Source of the DNA: an uncultured Gammaproteobacteria bacterium
Lineage (GTDB): Bacteria; Pseudomonadota; Gammaproteobacteria; JABCZS01
Direction: 5' to 3'
Assembly: GCA_964443025.1 (NCBI GenBank)
Contig: CAYUEL010000001.1
Coordinates: 6,155 to 70,154, forward strand
Length of the DNA: 64,000 nt
Shown: in pieces, positions 12,001-18,000 of the stretch
Layout: the number at the start of each line of letters is the position of its first letter
Numbering within the stretch: the first letter of the stretch is position 1
Position numbers: made by a program

Positions 12001-15000
12001 AAGTAATCACGCCTATGTTTATACCATGATGTCTTCCATGTTGATTCATGCGCGCACAACGGGTGTATTAGCCTCTGCAGATTTTCTATGGTTAAAACCG
12101 TTAGATCGCCGCTTATGGTTTATATTAAATGGTACGGGAAAACACGTGGCATTTTGCGAAATTGCAGGACCTTTCAGCCATTGGAGAGCTGAACGCGCAT
12201 TAAAACGTAAAATCACGCAACCCATGGTTGATGGTGCTATTAAAGGTTTGCAAGAAGCAATCAAAGGTATTATTTACACGCGGGATGAAGAATAATGGCG
12301 AGAATAACGCGTGGTGTAGAAGAAAGACATGAGCAGAAACCGCAGCAGCTGATTCGTGATACGCGTCCCTTATCCGAACGTTTTATTGAATACATTAAAG
12401 ATCCCAGTTCCGCGATCATTATGCTTGTGGCTTTTGGTGCAAGTATTTTTTTATTACCCGCTGGCAATGATATTTTATTATTATTAGCAATTATCATGTT
12501 CATGGTTTGCATGCTCACCAAAAAAACATTGCCGTTTCGCTTACCAAAACGTTGCGGTTTACTTGATTACAATGATCTCACGCCGAACAATCAACCCAAA
12601 AAAGCCGGCGGCATTGTTTATTTTGGCAATGAAAAATCTACGAATCTCGAACTATGGTTTACCAATGAAGACATGCGGACACACTGTTTGATTTTCGGAT
12701 CTACTGGTTCAGGTAAAACCGTTACACTCATATCGCTTTCGTATAGTGCATTGTTGCAAGGATCGGGTTACATTTACGTGGACGGTAAAGGTGATAACTC
12801 ATTATTTGCGAATACGTTTTCGATGGCACGCAGCATGGGGCGCGAAGATGATGTATTACTCATTAACTTCATGACCGGTGCGCGCGATATTATTGGCCCG
12901 CAAAAAACACGCATATCCAATACCATGAATCCTTTTTCCATGGGTTCATCAAGCATGTGCGCACAGTTGGTGACGAGTTTAATGCCATCATCCTCTGCAT
13001 CACCTGATGGTGACATGTGGATGGGCCGTGCGATTGCGTTCGTTGAAGCGCTCATGAAAATATTGGTTTACATGCGTGATCGCGGTGATTTATTATTAGA
13101 TGCACACAGTATCCGTAATTATTTCACATTACACAAACTTGAATCGATTGCATTGGATAAACGTTTTCCACTCGAGGGTGAAAAAACTGTATCGATTGAA
13201 GACGCGCCTGATGTTGTGTTGCAACCCATCGCTAACTACCTTGATACATTGCCAGGTTTTCATCCGAGTAAAAAAGGTAAACAAAGTTCGGAAGTGTTGG
13301 AACAGCACGGTTTTATTACCATGCAATTAACACGCGTATTTACATCACTTGCAGATACGTATGGACATATCTTACGTACAGAATTACCCGAAGTAGATTT
13401 TAAAGACGTGGTATTAAATCGACGCATTTTGGTTGTATTATTACCTGCATTAGAAAAAGCACCCACGGAATTATCTAACTTGGGTAAAATCATTGTGGCA
13501 TCATTAAAAGCCATGATGGCGTCCGGCTTGGGTGAACAAGTCGAGGGTACGTATCAAGAAACGATTGAAATGAAAATCACCAATGCGCCCACACCGTTTT
13601 TATGTATCCTAGATGAATATGGTTATTATGCAGTAGAAGGTTTTGCTGTGGTACCTGCGCAAGCACGTTCACTCGGCTTCTCTGCAATATTCGCTGGACA
13701 AGATTTACCCGCATTCCAAAAGGCATCGAAAGAAGAAGCCTTATCCATCGGTGCAAACACCAACATTAAAATATGTATGAAATTGGAAGACCCAATCGAA
13801 ACGTGGGATTTCTTCCAGAAAACAGCGGGCGAAGCATTCGTCACACAAACAGGTGGATTTGAAACCAACGTCAGCAGCATGACGAACAGTTATCTAGATA
13901 CGCGCAGCGCATCCATTGAAAAACGCGCACGTATTGATCTATTGGATTTGAAAGATCAAGATGTCGGTGAAATGCACATCTTCTTTAAATCACGCATTGT
14001 ACGTGCACGATCATTTTATGCAAATCCAAAACCTGTTAAGCGCATGAAACTGAATCAATATTTAAAAATCAAGCCGCCGCCCGATGAAGATATTATTCAC
14101 ATTAATAACCGTCTGTTTTACTTTCAGGAATCATTTAAAGATCCACGTCGTTTGGATAAACAAGAGATTACCTTAGATGATGAATTGCAATTCATTTTAA
14201 AATACATGGATCAACATCCAAATTCTCCCGGAACACCGACCGCTGCCGCTGCATTCAGAGCCTATTATGATTTCGAGCACGGTGAAGAGGAAGTGTACGA
14301 TGAAGAACTCGAAGCCCCTGTTGAAGGTATGGATATTTTAACGCAACCCATGCCATCGCTCAGAGATATGGAAACGCTTGATCCTATGCAATTGCTCAAT
14401 ATGCCTGCTTACAGCGGACCATTGGTTGATAAAGTGGAAACACGTAAAAACATTGAACGTATCGAACGTTATTTCGGCGAACCGCGTAACCGTGCCACTG
14501 CTCATGCAACCCGTTTATTAAAAGATTTACGCGTTGCTACGAAATACCCGCCCGGCCATGTACCTCCTCCTACTAAAACCGAAACCCTCGAAGCGATGGA
14601 TAAACTTATCCAGTATTTCCATAAGTTGAAGGCTGAGGCGAAGAGTGAAAGTAAAGGATGATTATCCTGGGATACTGTTACTGTTTAATAACGTAGAAAA
14701 GTCAATGACCTCCGCAAAGTACCCACTATCTTTAACTGACTCGCTTACACCGTTAATATGAATCAAAACTGGAAAGCATGAAAATCCTTTAGGCAACACT
14801 AAACGTGCTATTTTTTCTTTCATCTCTTGAATAATATCATTCGTTATCTCATGTTGTGAGAATTTAACTTCACAGGCAAATAAAGTGTTAAATCGAGTCT
14901 GAATTAAATAATCTATTTGACATCCAGATTTAGTAGTAGATTTCCTCTGAAAAAAAGGATTATCAGAGATAATATCATTCGGAGATAAATTTAATAATTT

Positions 15001-18000
15001 TTTAATCACTTTTCTATTTTTCAATACTAGGTTTTCAAACTGCAATCCCATTAATATATTCCAGTTGGGTAATTGCGATAAAGAAACATCCGTGAAATTA
15101 TCTAATGCTATTCTATCTTTATTAGGAAAAATAAATTTTAAATAAAATCTTAAATAATTATCACTTAAACGAAATACACTCAACCTTGAAGACTTACCGG
15201 ATTTAATCAACCAGGTATAATCCCTCGAAACAAAGCTTGATTCCACTAAACTATCAAGATAATCGCTGATAACACCACTTTTCTTATAATTTAATTTCTG
15301 ACAAATGCTATTAAAGTCACAGGAGCCTTCAGATAAAATCTCAACAATTTTTCTATAAACCTCACCCCTTCTTTGAAATAAGTCATGAAAAATCCTTTCA
15401 AATTCGTGAAACAATAATCCCTCTTTAATGAAACATAATTTTTTGATATTATCATCTGCATTAAACTTAGATTGAATTTGTTCTAAATACCAAGGAATTC
15501 CACCTAGCACTGATAATAATTTAAATTTTTCATAATCTGACCCCCTAAAACCTTGCTTCAATAACATGTCATTGCAATCCAGCAAAGGCAATTCCTCTAA
15601 TGTTAAGTAAAGAGAAATTCTGCCAAAAAAAGCTGTGCTACTGAGGATATTCTTTTCAATCCAAGTTGAAACCGAACCACACAATACCAATATTAACTCC
15701 GGATTCTTTTTAAATTCCATATCCCAAGCATTTTTTAATTTCCCTAAAAAGGTGGGGTCTTTAGATCCCATCCAAGATATTTCATCCAACAAAATAACCA
15801 CTCGACCTTGTTGCGTATGTCGAGCCAGTAAAGAAAATAATTCCGCCCAATCCTGGACACGCAGACCTGGAAGACCTAATTGTTTTGCTAGTTGTTGGGC
15901 AAATGCATCTTGTTGAGATTGCCGAGTGCTTCCCTTCGCAGGAGCAAGACCAGAAAATTGAAAAAAGCTGTAATCTTTGCCAAATTCCTCAATTAAACGG
16001 CTTTTGCCAATACGACGACGGCCCCGCACCACCACTAGGCTTGCACTTTGCTTATCAAATAAGCCTTTGAGTTTGGCTAACTCAGACTCTCTGCCTATAA
16101 AAGGGGCATTAGCAGGTGACATTTGATTACTCCTATTATGCACATAATAGGAAATTCTACATTATGTGCATAATATAGTCAATGGCGATATTATGCACAT
16201 AATTCAAAATTCTATATTATGTGCATAATAACTTCCGTTTGAATAACCCAATGATATTTAAGGGATAATAAGTAGTTATTTATACCCAACTGTAGTTTGA
16301 TTAGATTGAATAGGTGCTAGAGTTTCTTTATCTGAATAATCTTATCTCTAGTCTTTAGCCCGCGAATGATGATGAAAGCAGAGCAGGGGATACCGAGCTC
16401 TTTGGATAGCAACCTAATAACTTCTTTGTTAGCTTTACCATCTTCAGGAGCCACGGTTACATAAACACGAATACGTTTCTTGCCATTTTCAAGGTGCTCA
16501 ATTTTAATTCGATTAGCTGCTGCCTTTGGTGTTACACGTACATGTAAAATGTCACCAAAATCATCAAGGCTGGTAAAGAGGTCTAGTATCATCGTATCAA
16601 CAGTTTATCTTATATTGCATCGCATTTTAAGAGCATGAAGATTAAAAGCAGTCTATTCAAATATTTTAAACGCTATTACGCAAGCATGAGCCAGCGAACA
16701 TTGGTGATGAGTTAGATCTCATCTGATCGCTCCGCTCACTCACGTTCGCGGTTCCCGTAAAGGCTTGTCGTAATCTCATACGTGAGGCGCGAACGTTAGT
16801 GAGCGGGTGTGGAAAATTATAAATTTATACCTTGTTTTATGCATCAGGATTTTCTCCTCCAAGATAAGGTACATTTTCTTTTTCAGCATAATACTTATAT
16901 ATTTCAGCGAATTCCCATTCAGGTTCATAGACTTCTAGAATATCATCCATGACCGCATGTACTCTGGGGTCGTGGGTTTTGTTACACTTTGCAATTGCCG
17001 CCTCTTTTATCTCTTCCCACTGCAATTCACGCATACAAAATACAATGATTTCAAAAGGGCCTATTGTGCGGTCATAAACTAATTCAACAAAGCAGTCTAC
17101 TAAAATATCTCTATGTTTAAGATTTTTTTTTGTAAATTCAAGAATCGCTAATAAATCAGGCTCAAGATCGGGAGCGCCTCGAGTCATTGTTTCCCAGGTC
17201 TTATCTGCTTTTTTACAAAGTTCCTTAAACTCATTTACAATTGCTTCTCTTTGGTTCATTTTGGTCTCCATTTTCCACCTCGAGGTAATGCGGGTTCAGC
17301 TACCCAATGTTTTTCAATGTACTTTCCTTCTACATCAAAACCTATTTCCCTAAAGGCCTTTTCGGCTGCATACCGTGCACGTGGCCCGTGAGGTAAGTAA
17401 TGACCTGACGAGTTATCAATGTACCTTATTCTACCATGCACCAAATGCACTTCTCCCCCAGCTTGAACAGGCTCACCGTTGGCTAAATCAATATGCCCTC
17501 CCCCAGGCGTATCACGATTTTTCCCAACCACCAAACGTCCATCTTTTTTTACAACGTAGTTAAGCTTGCCAGTATAAGTTTGAAGAGCACGAACATTAAA
17601 TATATCTACCCTATCCAATTTATCCTGAGGAAATTTATTTTCAAATAACTGGGGTGCCTCTCGAGAGGGTGAAGGGGATCGGCTTGGACTTCGACCACCC
17701 CTACCTGAACCACCTGACGCTCCATGCGACGATCGTGCTTGTGGATTATTGTAAGCCTGTTGTGAGCGCAAGTAAAATGAAACACTGCGTCGGCTTGAAT
17801 CTGCATTAGCTTGTGGCAAAGACGGTAAGTACGTTCGGGTGACTGCATGGTGAGTGCCAGGATCAAAGGAAGCGTTGATAACTGATGTCACTTTCGGCGT
17901 CAAACCAGACTCAAAAATGACCTTGGGTTGAATATGAACACCACCATAAATCAAACGCATCGCTTCTTTATTGAAACTAGCGGGCACCCATAAGCATTGC

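What the first reader, a model, noticed from the sequence alone, without database searches (positions are those of the whole stretch)
14662..16245. ATPase-nuclease cassette 1: AAA+ (archaeal-ATPase-like) + PD-(D/E)xK gene with a 4-site alternating iteron array, abutting the icmO stop codon
The gene combines an Orc/Cdc6-related AAA+ NTPase, a winged-helix-like middle region and a C-terminal D...E-x-K nuclease-like module. This COG1672/DUF234-type architecture is rare and uncharacterised in bacteria. Directly upstream, overlapping the promoter/RBS, are four 14-bp sites (ATTATGCACATAAT and its reverse complement) in strictly alternating orientation. Their centres are 27, 29 and 26 bp apart, which makes two tandem copies of an inverted-repeat unit. 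This resembles plasmid/phage iterons, archaeal ORB elements or a multi-dimer operator. The gene's stop codon sits immediately adjacent to the icmO stop (14661/14662). Local codon usage is AT-rich, which suggests a horizontally inserted selfish or defence module.
Basis: partly seen in the sequence, partly recalled or inferred. Interest (0 to 1): 0.8.

Follow-up and report, generated by a model that had tools for sequence, protein, structure and literature searches.

The report
Mobile ATPase-nuclease gene with own operator
A horizontally acquired single gene for an ATP-driven DNA-cutting protein of a common but untested "candidate phage-defence" family (PDC-S27) carries four phased binding sites over its own promoter, most likely so that the protein switches off its own production; the design recurs across the family with different site sequences, which gives a testable handle on what these proteins bind.

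Summary
Gene A (14662-16122, minus strand, 486 aa) has a STAND/Orc-like P-loop ATPase, a winged helix and a C-terminal restriction-endonuclease-fold domain with an invariant E...D...ExK motif. Four exact 14-mers lie upstream at 26/29/26-bp spacing. The gene is not rare. It matches PADLOC candidate PDC-S27 over its full length (E 6e-87), a family with thousands of bacterial and archaeal members and no demonstrated function. The array is best read as an auto-operator, not iterons. The conserved unit is TGCACATAAT-N12-ATTATGTGCA, repeated twice at a 55-bp period. Half-site 3 fills the spacer of the best sigma-70 match (TTGACT-17-TAGAAT) and half-site 4 lies between the -10 box and the Shine-Dalgarno sequence. 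Orthologues in Simkania, a Rickettsia endosymbiont and alphaproteobacterial MAGs keep these half-sites while their flanking genes differ. A 28%-identical paralogue in the same window (40387-41844), inserted between etfB and etfA, has the same geometry with a different half-site (AGCCAGATAG). So do a Wolbachia phage WO copy and a Desulfosarcina plasmid copy. Relatives with 90% and 78% identical IcmO lack the gene; here a 9.1-kb lineage-specific block follows icmO. Binding by the encoded protein, repression and any defence role are inferred, not shown. Moderate interest: a new member of a known candidate family, with a regulatory design I did not find described.

The parts
14662..16122 (-). Gene A: 486-aa ATPase-wHTH-nuclease protein of the PDC-S27 / COG1672 family (coordinates include the stop codon at 14662-14664)
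   Evidence: ORF. PADLOC PDLC04984 E 6.1e-87 over residues 8-476. Pfam ATPase_2 52 bits. AF2 model pLDDT 92.8.
15475..16101 (-). P-loop NTPase domain (aa 8-216): Walker A G34-RRR-I-G-K40-S, Walker B LLDE114
15163..15366 (-). Winged-helix domain (aa ~253-320: H2 270-277, H3 283-294, beta-hairpin wing 298-319)
   Evidence: HTH_5 E 0.007 in gene A; 15 of 50 relatives match at E<=0.01, best 5e-7. Secondary structure of the model. This region is covered by the 2qen/2fna/Orc alignments.
14686..15063 (-). C-terminal PD-(D/E)xK (restriction-endonuclease-fold) domain (aa ~354-479) with E363, D404, E418-x-K420
16130..16134 (-). Shine-Dalgarno AGGAG, 8 nt upstream of the ATG
   Evidence: Read from the sequence. 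Conserved as AATAGGA(G) in orthologues L161 and L163.
16135..16148 (-). Half-site 4 (proximal), between the -10 box and the SD; 10-mer core centred 21 nt upstream of the ATG
16154..16159 (-). -10 hexamer TAGAAT, lying between half-sites 3 and 4
   Evidence: Best promoter-like match in 14500-16700: TTGACT-17-TAGAAT, 10 of 12. A -10-like hexamer sits at this position in all orthologues.
16161..16174 (-). Half-site 3, filling the 17-nt spacer between -35 and -10
16177..16182 (-). -35 hexamer TTGACT
16190..16203 (-). Half-site 2 (distal pair)
16209..16214 (-). Second TAGAAT, between half-sites 1 and 2; it belongs to the duplicated 55-bp unit and could be a second weak promoter or a relic of the duplication
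   Evidence: Read from the sequence. The 42-nt unit is repeated at 90% identity.
16216..16229 (-). Half-site 1 (most distal). Similarity to orthologous cassettes begins here.
40387..41844 (-). Gene B: 485-aa paralogue (28% identical to gene A, same family), inserted between etfB (41976-42722) and etfA (39450-40382)
   Evidence: tblastn. PADLOC PDC-S27 E 4e-103. Pfam ETF and ETF_alpha on the neighbours. Junction sequence.
41859..41948 (-). Gene B's own four-half-site array: (G/A)AGCCAGATA and complement at 41859-68, 41885-94, 41913-22 and 41939-48, spaced 26/28/26. TTGACT-17-TATTAT (41903..41875) has half-site 3 in its spacer.

Best explanation
Gene A plus its 100-bp upstream array is a self-contained, horizontally mobile single-gene cassette of the PDC-S27 (COG1672, ATPase_2 + DUF234) family. 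The protein joins a STAND/Orc-like P-loop NTPase, a winged helix and a catalytically intact restriction-endonuclease-fold nuclease.

The array is most likely the protein's own operator. It consists of two tandem inverted-repeat pairs, TGCACATAAT-N12-ATTATGTGCA, at a 55-bp period. The proximal pair brackets the -10 box and the transcription start, so binding there occludes RNA polymerase. The distal pair lies just upstream of -35 and probably adds cooperativity, as in a dimer of dimers. The result would be tight negative autoregulation that needs no host regulator, which suits a potentially toxic nuclease gene that moves between unrelated intracellular bacteria.

I infer that, away from the operator, an unknown cue drives nucleotide-dependent oligomerisation and DNA cleavage, either as anti-invader defence or as abortive or addictive toxicity.

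Shown here: the domain architecture and intact motifs; the array and its overlap with the best promoter match; conservation of half-sites with the gene across phyla; the same geometry with different half-sites in paralogous clades; absence of the gene from close relatives.

Inferred: that the encoded protein is the binder, and which of its domains reads the DNA; repression rather than activation; the biological role.

For: 2. Promoter overlap. The best sigma-70 match upstream of gene A is TTGACT-17-TAGAAT, with half-site 3 in the spacer and half-site 4 between -10 and the SD. Gene B has the identical layout with TTGACT-17-TATTAT.

3. The operator travels with the gene. Orthologues at 61-77% identity keep TGCACA(T/A)AAT x4 at about -98/-76/-43/-21 from the ATG. 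They include L161, L163, L005, L002, L003, Simkania negevensis L173 and a Rickettsia endosymbiont L174. Linker sequences and flanking genes differ. No other ORF co-travels with the array.

4. Specificity changes with the protein while geometry stays. The B clade uses AGCCAGATAG at -98/-74/-44/-20 (window, L165, L166). L007 uses TCCCGCAAAA. The Desulfosarcina plasmid copy L171 uses CACMAAATCAACG. The Wolbachia phage WO copy L172 uses CCGCGGTA x4 at 26/30/26 with TATAAT between sites.

5. Statistics. 12 of 108 non-redundant family upstream regions have a >=11/12 direct repeat at offset 53-56. Shuffles predict 0.3, and 1 of 153 other intergenic upstream regions in the same loci shows it. The best inverted-repeat arm averages 10.6 nt against 8.7 nt in those controls (Mann-Whitney p 1.7e-10) and 8.3 nt in shuffles. 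Distant Bacteroidota members carry triple palindromes next to the -7 box.

6. Horizontal acquisition. Gene A has 34% GC against 42% for its neighbours. It is absent after icmO in L168 and L169. Gene B splits etfB from etfA. Homologues occur on 155 plasmids and in phage WO.
Against: - There is no binding, expression or nuclease experiment.
- The start of the putative recognition helix (KSGVIS in gene A, SGGVIS in L007) is nearly the same in clades with quite different half-sites. The winged helix may therefore not be the specificity reader. In STAND proteins this domain is often structural rather than DNA-binding.
- The only PDC-S27 representative tested so far gave no protection against T4, T5 or T7 in E. 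coli B (10.1101/2024.09.26.614923). The defence part of the model therefore rests on PADLOC's 'guilt-by-embedding' prediction and on the domain logic.
- Neither cassette in this window lies in a recognisable defence island.
- The promoter is a consensus match only, and the sigma factors of this organism are unknown.
- The 54-56-bp design was found only in the proteobacterial, intracellular-bacteria and WO clades. More distant members have other operator layouts.
Confidence: 0.55

Rival explanations
1. The half-sites are the recognition sequence of a sequence-specific, ATP-gated, restriction-like enzyme. The protein reads this 10-mer wherever it occurs in phased pairs. The copies in its own promoter then serve only secondarily as a dosage sensor, or as a 'self' site that holds the enzyme in an inactive state.
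For: The C-terminal domain resembles the cleavage domains of Type IIS, ISP and IV restriction enzymes such as FokI, LlaBIII and McrC. The catalytic residues are invariant. Half-site sequences diversify between clades as restriction specificities do. The winged-helix recognition helix does not track specificity, which leaves room for another reader domain.
Against: The enzyme would have to spare its own promoter, and no methyltransferase accompanies the gene. One extra exact TGCACATAAT occurs in the window at 383-392, so there is no visible avoidance, although 64 kb is too little sequence to test this. It overlaps the best explanation rather than excluding it.
Confidence: 0.12
2. The cassette is a self-mobilising selfish element. 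The ATPase-nuclease uses the array as its recombination or recognition end and inserts array plus gene into new intergenic sites, in a homing- or transposition-like way.
For: The unit is minimal and sharply bounded. Similarity to orthologues starts at half-site 1 and ends at the stop codon. Copies sit alone in unrelated places: between etfB and etfA, in the phage WO head module, beside a plasmid tra operon, next to hrcA-grpE-dnaK in Simkania, and abutting convergent stop codons. No transposase or integrase is adjacent. AAA+ regulators of transposition (TnsC, MuB) appear among the weaker structural matches.
Confidence: 0.07
3. The sites are bound by a host or otherwise unlinked transcription factor, and the ATPase itself does not bind them.
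For: Nothing directly shows that the encoded protein binds DNA. The winged helix of STAND proteins is often not a DNA reader. The recognition-helix comparison was inconclusive.
Against: The same half-sites accompany orthologues in Gammaproteobacteria, Alphaproteobacteria and Chlamydiota, whose flanking genes differ. Paralogues in one genome have different sites. The only gene that co-travels with each array is the ATPase gene. The sites are absent elsewhere in the window, so no regulon is apparent.
Confidence: 0.08
4. The array is a set of iterons, or an ORB-like origin or partition element, served by an Orc/Cdc6-like initiator.
Against: The closest structural relatives outside the family are STAND NB-ARC domains. 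The cassettes are single genes in bacterial chromosomes, in a phage head module and inside an operon, with no helicase, Rep or Par genes nearby. The sites are in register with the promoter and start codon. Cumulative GC skew runs smoothly through 14-17 kb. A conserved nuclease domain has no place in an initiator.
Confidence: 0.03

Closest known systems
PADLOC phage-defence candidate PDC-S27 (Payne et al. 2024 preprint, 10.1101/2024.01.29.577857; surveyed in PMC12988326)
   Same: Full-length HMM match for gene A (E 6e-87) and gene B (E 4e-103). It is a single-gene system combining an ATPase with a PD-(D/E)xK domain. It is common in bacteria and archaea and enriched in host-dependent lineages.
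   Different: PDC-S27 is only a prediction from genes embedded in other defence loci. One representative gave no protection against T4, T5 or T7 (10.1101/2024.09.26.614923). Neither copy here lies in or beside a defence system. I found no published description of the operator array.
Archaeal 'Walker-type ATPase' structures PAB2304 (PDB 2QEN) and SSO1545 (PDB 2FNA); Pfam ATPase_2 with DUF234 (COG1672)
   Different: The two solved proteins are 350 aa and lack the nuclease domain. Their function is unknown. Gene A's own DUF234 score is below the Pfam cutoff (13 against 22.5 bits).
STAND NTPases used in immunity (bacterial Avs, plant NLR, CED-4/Apaf-1) and STAND transcription factors (MalT type)
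   Different: There is no TPR, WD40 or LRR sensor domain. The nuclease is C-terminal rather than N-terminal. The protein is only 486 aa. A cognate DNA array at its own promoter is not a described feature of Avs.
Controller (C) protein operators of restriction-modification systems, and toxin-antitoxin auto-operators
   Same: The logic and layout are alike: two tandem palindromic operators (four half-sites) overlapping the promoter of a mobile, potentially toxic nuclease module. They give host-independent feedback control when the module enters a new cell (my own knowledge of C.PvuII and C.AhdI).
   Different: Here the presumed regulator and the nuclease are one polypeptide. The protein is not an Xre-type C protein, and no methyltransferase or antitoxin partner is present.
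Archaeal Orc1/Cdc6 with ORB repeats
   Different: The host is bacterial. A nuclease domain is present. There are no replication genes, the sites are in register with a promoter, and there is no skew signal.

Membership tests
PADLOC PDC-S27 | Full-length match to the PDC-S27 profile HMM (PDLC04984) | tested here: met
   Gene A: E 6.1e-87, residues 8-476 on profile positions 4-470 of 474. Gene B: E 4.3e-103.
PADLOC PDC-S27 | Embedded in or adjacent to known defence systems (the basis of the candidate call) | tested here: not met
   Gene A lies between icmO and a DUF167 gene. Gene B lies between etfB and etfA. Orthologues sit among housekeeping genes.
PADLOC PDC-S27 | Protects against phage | not testable with these tools
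   In the literature, one representative was tested in E. coli B against T4, T5 and T7 and gave no protection (10.1101/2024.09.26.614923). The family is listed as untested in 10.1101/2024.01.29.577857.
Pfam ATPase_2 (PF01637) | Score above the gathering threshold; Walker A and Walker B present | tested here: met
   52 bits against 33.2. GRRRIGKS and LLDE are invariant. 50 of 50 aligned relatives match.
Pfam DUF234 (PF03008) | Score above the gathering threshold | tested here: not met
   Gene A scores 13 bits against 22.5, E 0.14. However, 18 of 50 relatives in the same alignment match at E<=0.01, best 6.4e-7, so gene A is a divergent member rather than an outsider.
PD-(D/E)xK nuclease superfamily | alpha-beta-beta-beta-alpha-beta core with E ... 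D ... (D/E)xK residues | tested here: met
STAND NTPases (Avs-type defence) | NBD-helical-WHD nucleotide-binding oligomerisation module | tested here: met
STAND NTPases (Avs-type defence) | C-terminal repeat sensor domain (TPR, WD40 or LRR) that recognises a phage protein | tested here: not met
   The protein ends with the nuclease domain at residue 486. No repeat domain appears in Pfam or in the model.
Orc1/Cdc6 initiators with ORB origin | AAA+ domain plus a DNA-binding winged helix | tested here: inconclusive
Orc1/Cdc6 initiators with ORB origin | Sites mark a replication origin (skew switch, replication genes, unwinding element) | tested here: not met
   Cumulative GC skew has no switch across 14-17 kb. 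No replication genes flank any copy examined. The sites are in register with -35, -10 and the ATG.
Plasmid/phage iterons | Directly repeated sites next to a rep gene that control replication | tested here: not met
   The half-sites are inverted pairs, no Rep protein is encoded, and the context is chromosomal.
Autoregulatory operator (functional class, not a sequence family) | Sites overlap the gene's own promoter and co-vary with the regulator | tested here: met
   Overlap. Co-transfer and clade-specific half-sites with constant geometry.
Autoregulatory operator (functional class, not a sequence family) | The gene product binds the sites and changes transcription | not testable with these tools
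   This needs EMSA or footprinting and reporter assays.

The most novel reading that the evidence does not exclude
Specific double-stranded DNA is the ligand of this STAND/Orc-like module. Protomers assemble on four phased half-sites, and the family is a large, naturally diversified set of programmable, ATP-gated, sequence-reading nucleases. Each member's own promoter carries a 'self' copy of its target that holds it in a repressing, non-cutting state. An extension of this reading is that the same recognition lets the minimal array-plus-gene unit move by itself.
Probability: 0.12. Interest if true: 0.8.

Novelty: new member of a known kind. Interest (0 to 1): 0.45.

Why it matters
PDC-S27/COG1672 proteins are among the most common uncharacterised ATPase-nuclease genes in bacteria and archaea. 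They were catalogued as nucleases in 2012 and as defence candidates in 2024, and the one published phage assay was negative.

This analysis shows that each gene carries a cognate, clade-specific array of phased half-sites locked to its promoter. That predicts the DNA ligand for individual family members. It also explains how a toxic nuclease gene can be dropped alone into unrelated genomes, including into an operon and into a phage head module. Finally, it provides ready-made orthogonal protein/operator pairs (A and B in one genome) for direct tests.

For this genome it identifies two independent acquisitions from the gene pool shared by amoeba- and arthropod-associated intracellular bacteria. 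One of them sits at the edge of the Dot/Icm secretion-system locus.

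Tried and rejected
- Exact look-ups of the window's own proteins to recover the source contig found nothing on record.
- Sequence search of the PDB with the single protein gave only chance hits. The profile found 2QEN at E 3e-5.
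- NCBIfam has no model for the protein.
- A word-start literature search for DUF234 returned only DUF2345 papers about T6SS. Searches for COG1672/PF01637/PF03008, for ATPase_2 plus defence, and for autoregulation terms found no functional study.
- Rfam gave only sub-threshold miRNA-hairpin matches caused by the palindromes, so a structured-RNA reading was dropped. Half-site 4 would form at most a 6-bp A/U stem.
- I looked for further copies of either half-site in the window, as evidence of a regulon or a second cassette end. There were none beyond chance.
- I tried to tie operator specificity to winged-helix residues. The result was inconclusive, because the start of helix 3 is similar in clades with different sites.
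- The metagenome scan added only three close relatives.
- The first k-mer screen for multi-site arrays was too noisy for distant members. It was replaced by the inverted-repeat and offset tests with shuffled and real-genome controls.
- An intrinsic terminator between the convergent icmO and gene A was sought and not found.

Full report
**1. What is in the sequence**

The ORF on the minus strand runs 14662..16143. The biologically likely start is the ATG at 16122. It lies 8 nt after AGGAG and gives 486 aa beginning MSPANAPFIGRE, which is where all orthologues begin. The icmO/dotL ORF ends at 14661, so the two convergent stop codons abut. No terminator-like hairpin lies at the junction.

Upstream there are four exact copies of ATTATGCACATAAT or its complement, at 16135-48, 16161-74, 16190-203 and 16216-29. 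The centre spacings are 26, 29 and 26 bp. None of 100 shuffles of the window reached this number of matches. The array is a 55-bp direct repeat of a 42-nt inverted-repeat unit.

Gene A has 34.1% GC (GC3 29%), against 42% (GC3 38%) for icmO and 42.8% for the window.

**2. The protein**

- Pfam places residues 8-216 in ATPase_2 (52 bits, cutoff 33.2). There are weak hits to ArsR-type HTH_5 (residues 257-299) and to DUF4143/DUF234 (residues 327-423).
- In a 50-sequence alignment of gene A, its window paralogue and their relatives, all 50 match ATPase_2. Eighteen match DUF234 (best 6e-7), fifteen match HTH_5 (best 5e-7) and thirteen match nSTAND6.
- The invariant columns are Walker A (G34, R35-37, G39, K40), Walker B (E114), and E363, D404, E418 and K420. 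The last four are the canonical PD-(D/E)xK set.

The ATPase is at least as close to STAND as to Orc/Cdc6.

**3. It is a known and common family**

PADLOC's PDC-S27 model matches gene A end to end (E 6e-87) and the paralogue at E 4e-103. PDC-S27 is one of 145 untested candidates predicted because such genes are found embedded in BREX, DISARM or Type I RM loci (10.1101/2024.01.29.577857).

A 2026 survey counted 4,562 hits in 40,000 bacterial genomes and 3,503 in 7,747 archaeal genomes. It describes the family as an ATPase fused to a PD-(D/E)xK domain (PMC12988326). The fusion was already listed in 2012 (PMC3424549). One representative was tested in E. coli B and gave no protection against T4, T5 or T7.

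My own search found more than 7,800 clusters at E<=1e-10. 'Rare in bacteria' is therefore wrong; 'uncharacterised' is right.

The closest relatives of gene A (60-77% identity) come from Simkania, Paracaedimonas, Caedibacter, a Rickettsia endosymbiont, Chlamydiota and alphaproteobacterial MAGs. This is the gene pool of intracellular bacteria of amoebae and arthropods. Relatives of the paralogue come from Babeliales, Chlamydiota and Myxococcota. Homologues occur on 155 of 72,556 plasmids and in 8 of 50,697 phage records. One phage copy lies inside the head module of Wolbachia phage WO.

**4. What the array is**

Read on the coding strand, the region is:

half-site 1, TAGAAT, half-site 2, linker containing TTGACT, half-site 3, TAGAAT, half-site 4, AGGAG, ATG.

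The best sigma-70-type match in 14500-16700 is TTGACT-17-TAGAAT (10 of 12). Half-site 3 fills its spacer, and half-site 4 lies between the -10 box and the Shine-Dalgarno sequence.

A second family member in the window (40387-41844, 28% identical) has its own array, (G/A)AGCCAGATA and its complement, four times at 26/28/26 bp. Its best promoter match, TTGACT-17-TATTAT, has the same relation to half-sites 3 and 4.

Measured from the ATG, the 10-mer centres are -98/-76/-43/-21 for gene A and -98/-74/-44/-20 for gene B.

**5. The array travels with the gene, and its sequence changes with the protein**

Orthologues of gene A keep TGCACA(T/A)AAT in four copies with a 53-55-bp period and nearly the same distances from the ATG. 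They are L161 (77%), L163 (74%), L005 (69%), Simkania L173 (64%), a Rickettsia endosymbiont L174 (63%), L002 (62%) and L003 (61%). Their flanking genes are unrelated housekeeping genes.

An alignment of seven such upstream regions conserves the half-sites and a -10-like hexamer but not the linkers. Similarity begins at half-site 1.

Other clades keep the layout with different words:

| Clade or locus | Half-site | Source |
|---|---|---|
| Gene B orthologues L165, L166 (66-67%) | AGCCAGATAG, four copies, same layout | |
| Legionella MAG copy L007 (55%) | TCCCGCAAAA, centre spacing 25 + 29 bp | |
| Desulfosarcina plasmid copy L171 (46%) | CACMAAATCAACG, 54 bp apart | |
| Phage WO copy L172 (29%) | CCGCGGTA, four copies at 26/30/26, TATAAT after sites 1 and 3 | |

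Among 108 non-redundant family upstream regions, 12 have a >=11/12 direct repeat at offset 53-56. Shuffles predict 0.3, and only 1 of 153 other intergenic upstream regions in the same loci shows it.

Across the whole family the best inverted-repeat arm averages 10.6 nt. It is 8.3 nt in shuffles and 8.7 nt in real controls (Mann-Whitney p 1.7e-10). Distant Bacteroidota members show a different but analogous design: three TTAYNRTAA-type palindromes at a 15-bp period, usually directly after the TAnnTTTG promoter box.

The only gene that always accompanies each array is the ATPase-nuclease gene. This is the main argument that its product is the binder.

**6. Insertion**

In the two closest available relatives (IcmO 90% and 78% identical), icmO is followed after 15-80 bp by a convergent 833-846-aa gene. 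That gene corresponds to window 23772-26255.

The window therefore carries a 9.1-kb lineage-specific block (14662 to about 23770) with five genes:
- gene A;
- a DUF167 gene;
- a 144-aa ORF;
- a 1,390-aa J-domain protein;
- a 677-aa Sel1-repeat protein.

Gene A is the icmO-proximal end of this block. Whether it arrived alone or with the block is open.

Gene B is a cleaner case. It sits between etfB and etfA on the same strand. Its first half-site starts about 27 nt after the etfB stop codon, and the etfA ATG lies 4 nt after B's stop codon. The likely etfA ribosome-binding AGGA is inside B's last codons.

**7. Mechanism**

Most likely (confidence 0.55) the array is a bipartite auto-operator. Occupancy of the proximal pair blocks the -10 box and the transcription start. 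The distal pair stabilises a higher-order complex. The gene thereby sets its own low expression level in any host.

This is the same logic as the controller-protein operators of restriction-modification systems and toxin-antitoxin auto-operators. Here, however, regulator and nuclease would be a single polypeptide.

The intact Walker and nuclease motifs in clades that are only 28% identical argue that the protein also cuts nucleic acid in a nucleotide-dependent way. Whether this serves defence, abortive toxicity or selfish persistence is not shown.

Weak points:
- There is no experiment.
- The start of winged-helix helix 3 is similar in clades with different half-sites, so the reader domain is unresolved. 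The wing, the nuclease domain or the ATPase insert are alternatives.
- The single published phage assay for the family was negative.
- Neither copy here is in a defence island.

**8. Rivals**

- A restriction-like enzyme whose recognition word is the half-site (0.12). This overlaps the main model.
- A self-mobilising cassette (0.07). The minimal, sharply bounded units in odd places favour it. The lack of any 3' site or target duplication, and the promoter register, count against it.
- An unlinked transcription factor (0.08). This is contradicted by co-transfer across phyla.
- Iterons or an ORB-like origin (0.03). There are no replication genes and no skew signal, the sites are in promoter register, and a nuclease domain is present.

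**9. Verdict**

The gene is a member of a large, already catalogued candidate family, and the 'iteron' idea gives way to an auto-operator.

What I did not find in the literature is the family-level regularity: a cognate, clade-specific, phase-locked half-site array carried with each gene. That makes an old uncharacterised family directly testable. Interest is moderate, at 0.45.

Noticed in passing
window 39450-42722: The paralogous cassette B (array plus gene, about 1.6 kb) is inserted between etfB and etfA on the same strand. The etfA ATG lies 4 nt after B's stop codon, and its likely AGGA ribosome-binding site is inside B's last codons. etfA expression may therefore now depend on read-through from B's self-regulated promoter.
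   Followed up: partly
window 14662-23771: A 9.1-kb block between icmO and the next conserved Dot/Icm-region gene is absent from relatives with 90% and 78% identical IcmO. Besides gene A it encodes a DUF167 protein, a 144-aa ORF, a 1,390-aa protein with an N-terminal J domain and a 677-aa Sel1-repeat protein. The last two look like candidate secreted effectors.
   Followed up: partly
window 14655-14670: The convergent icmO and gene A stop codons abut with no intergenic base and no terminator-like hairpin. Transcription of each gene would run antisense into the other.
   Followed up: partly
window 50783-63979: A single 4,398-aa ORF on the minus strand was listed in the ORF scan but not examined.
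   Followed up: no
L172 3879-5455 (Wolbachia phage WO, MN180249.1): A family member, annotated in the record as 'archaeal ATPase, fused to C-terminal DUF234 domain', sits inside the phage head module between the head-tail preconnector genes and downstream structural genes. It has four CCGCGGTA sites at 26/30/26 bp and TATAAT boxes.
   Followed up: partly
L025, L026, L062, L074, L125, L099, L120 (about 40-75 nt upstream of the start codon): Distant Bacteroidota members of the family (22-27% identity) carry three palindromes of the TTAYNRTAA or TTTCGAAA type at a 15-bp period. These form a composite palindrome of about 40 bp, usually directly after the Bacteroidota TAnnTTTG promoter box.
   Followed up: partly
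L005 2992-4426: In this alphaproteobacterial MAG, the 69%-identical orthologue's reading frame stops after 360 codons, although similarity continues to residue 480. This could be a pseudogene or an assembly error. Its operator is intact.
   Followed up: no
L007, about 100-230 nt upstream of the gene: A separate direct repeat, ATGTCGTGCA(W)T(Y)TCGA, occurs twice upstream of the Legionella MAG copy and is unrelated to that copy's TCCCGCAAAA sites.
   Followed up: no
L161 5440-5443; L166 4432-4449; window 14661/14662: Several family copies end exactly at, or overlap by a few bases, the 3' end of a convergent neighbouring gene. This suggests a preference for, or tolerance of, insertion in the short gaps between convergent genes.
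   Followed up: no
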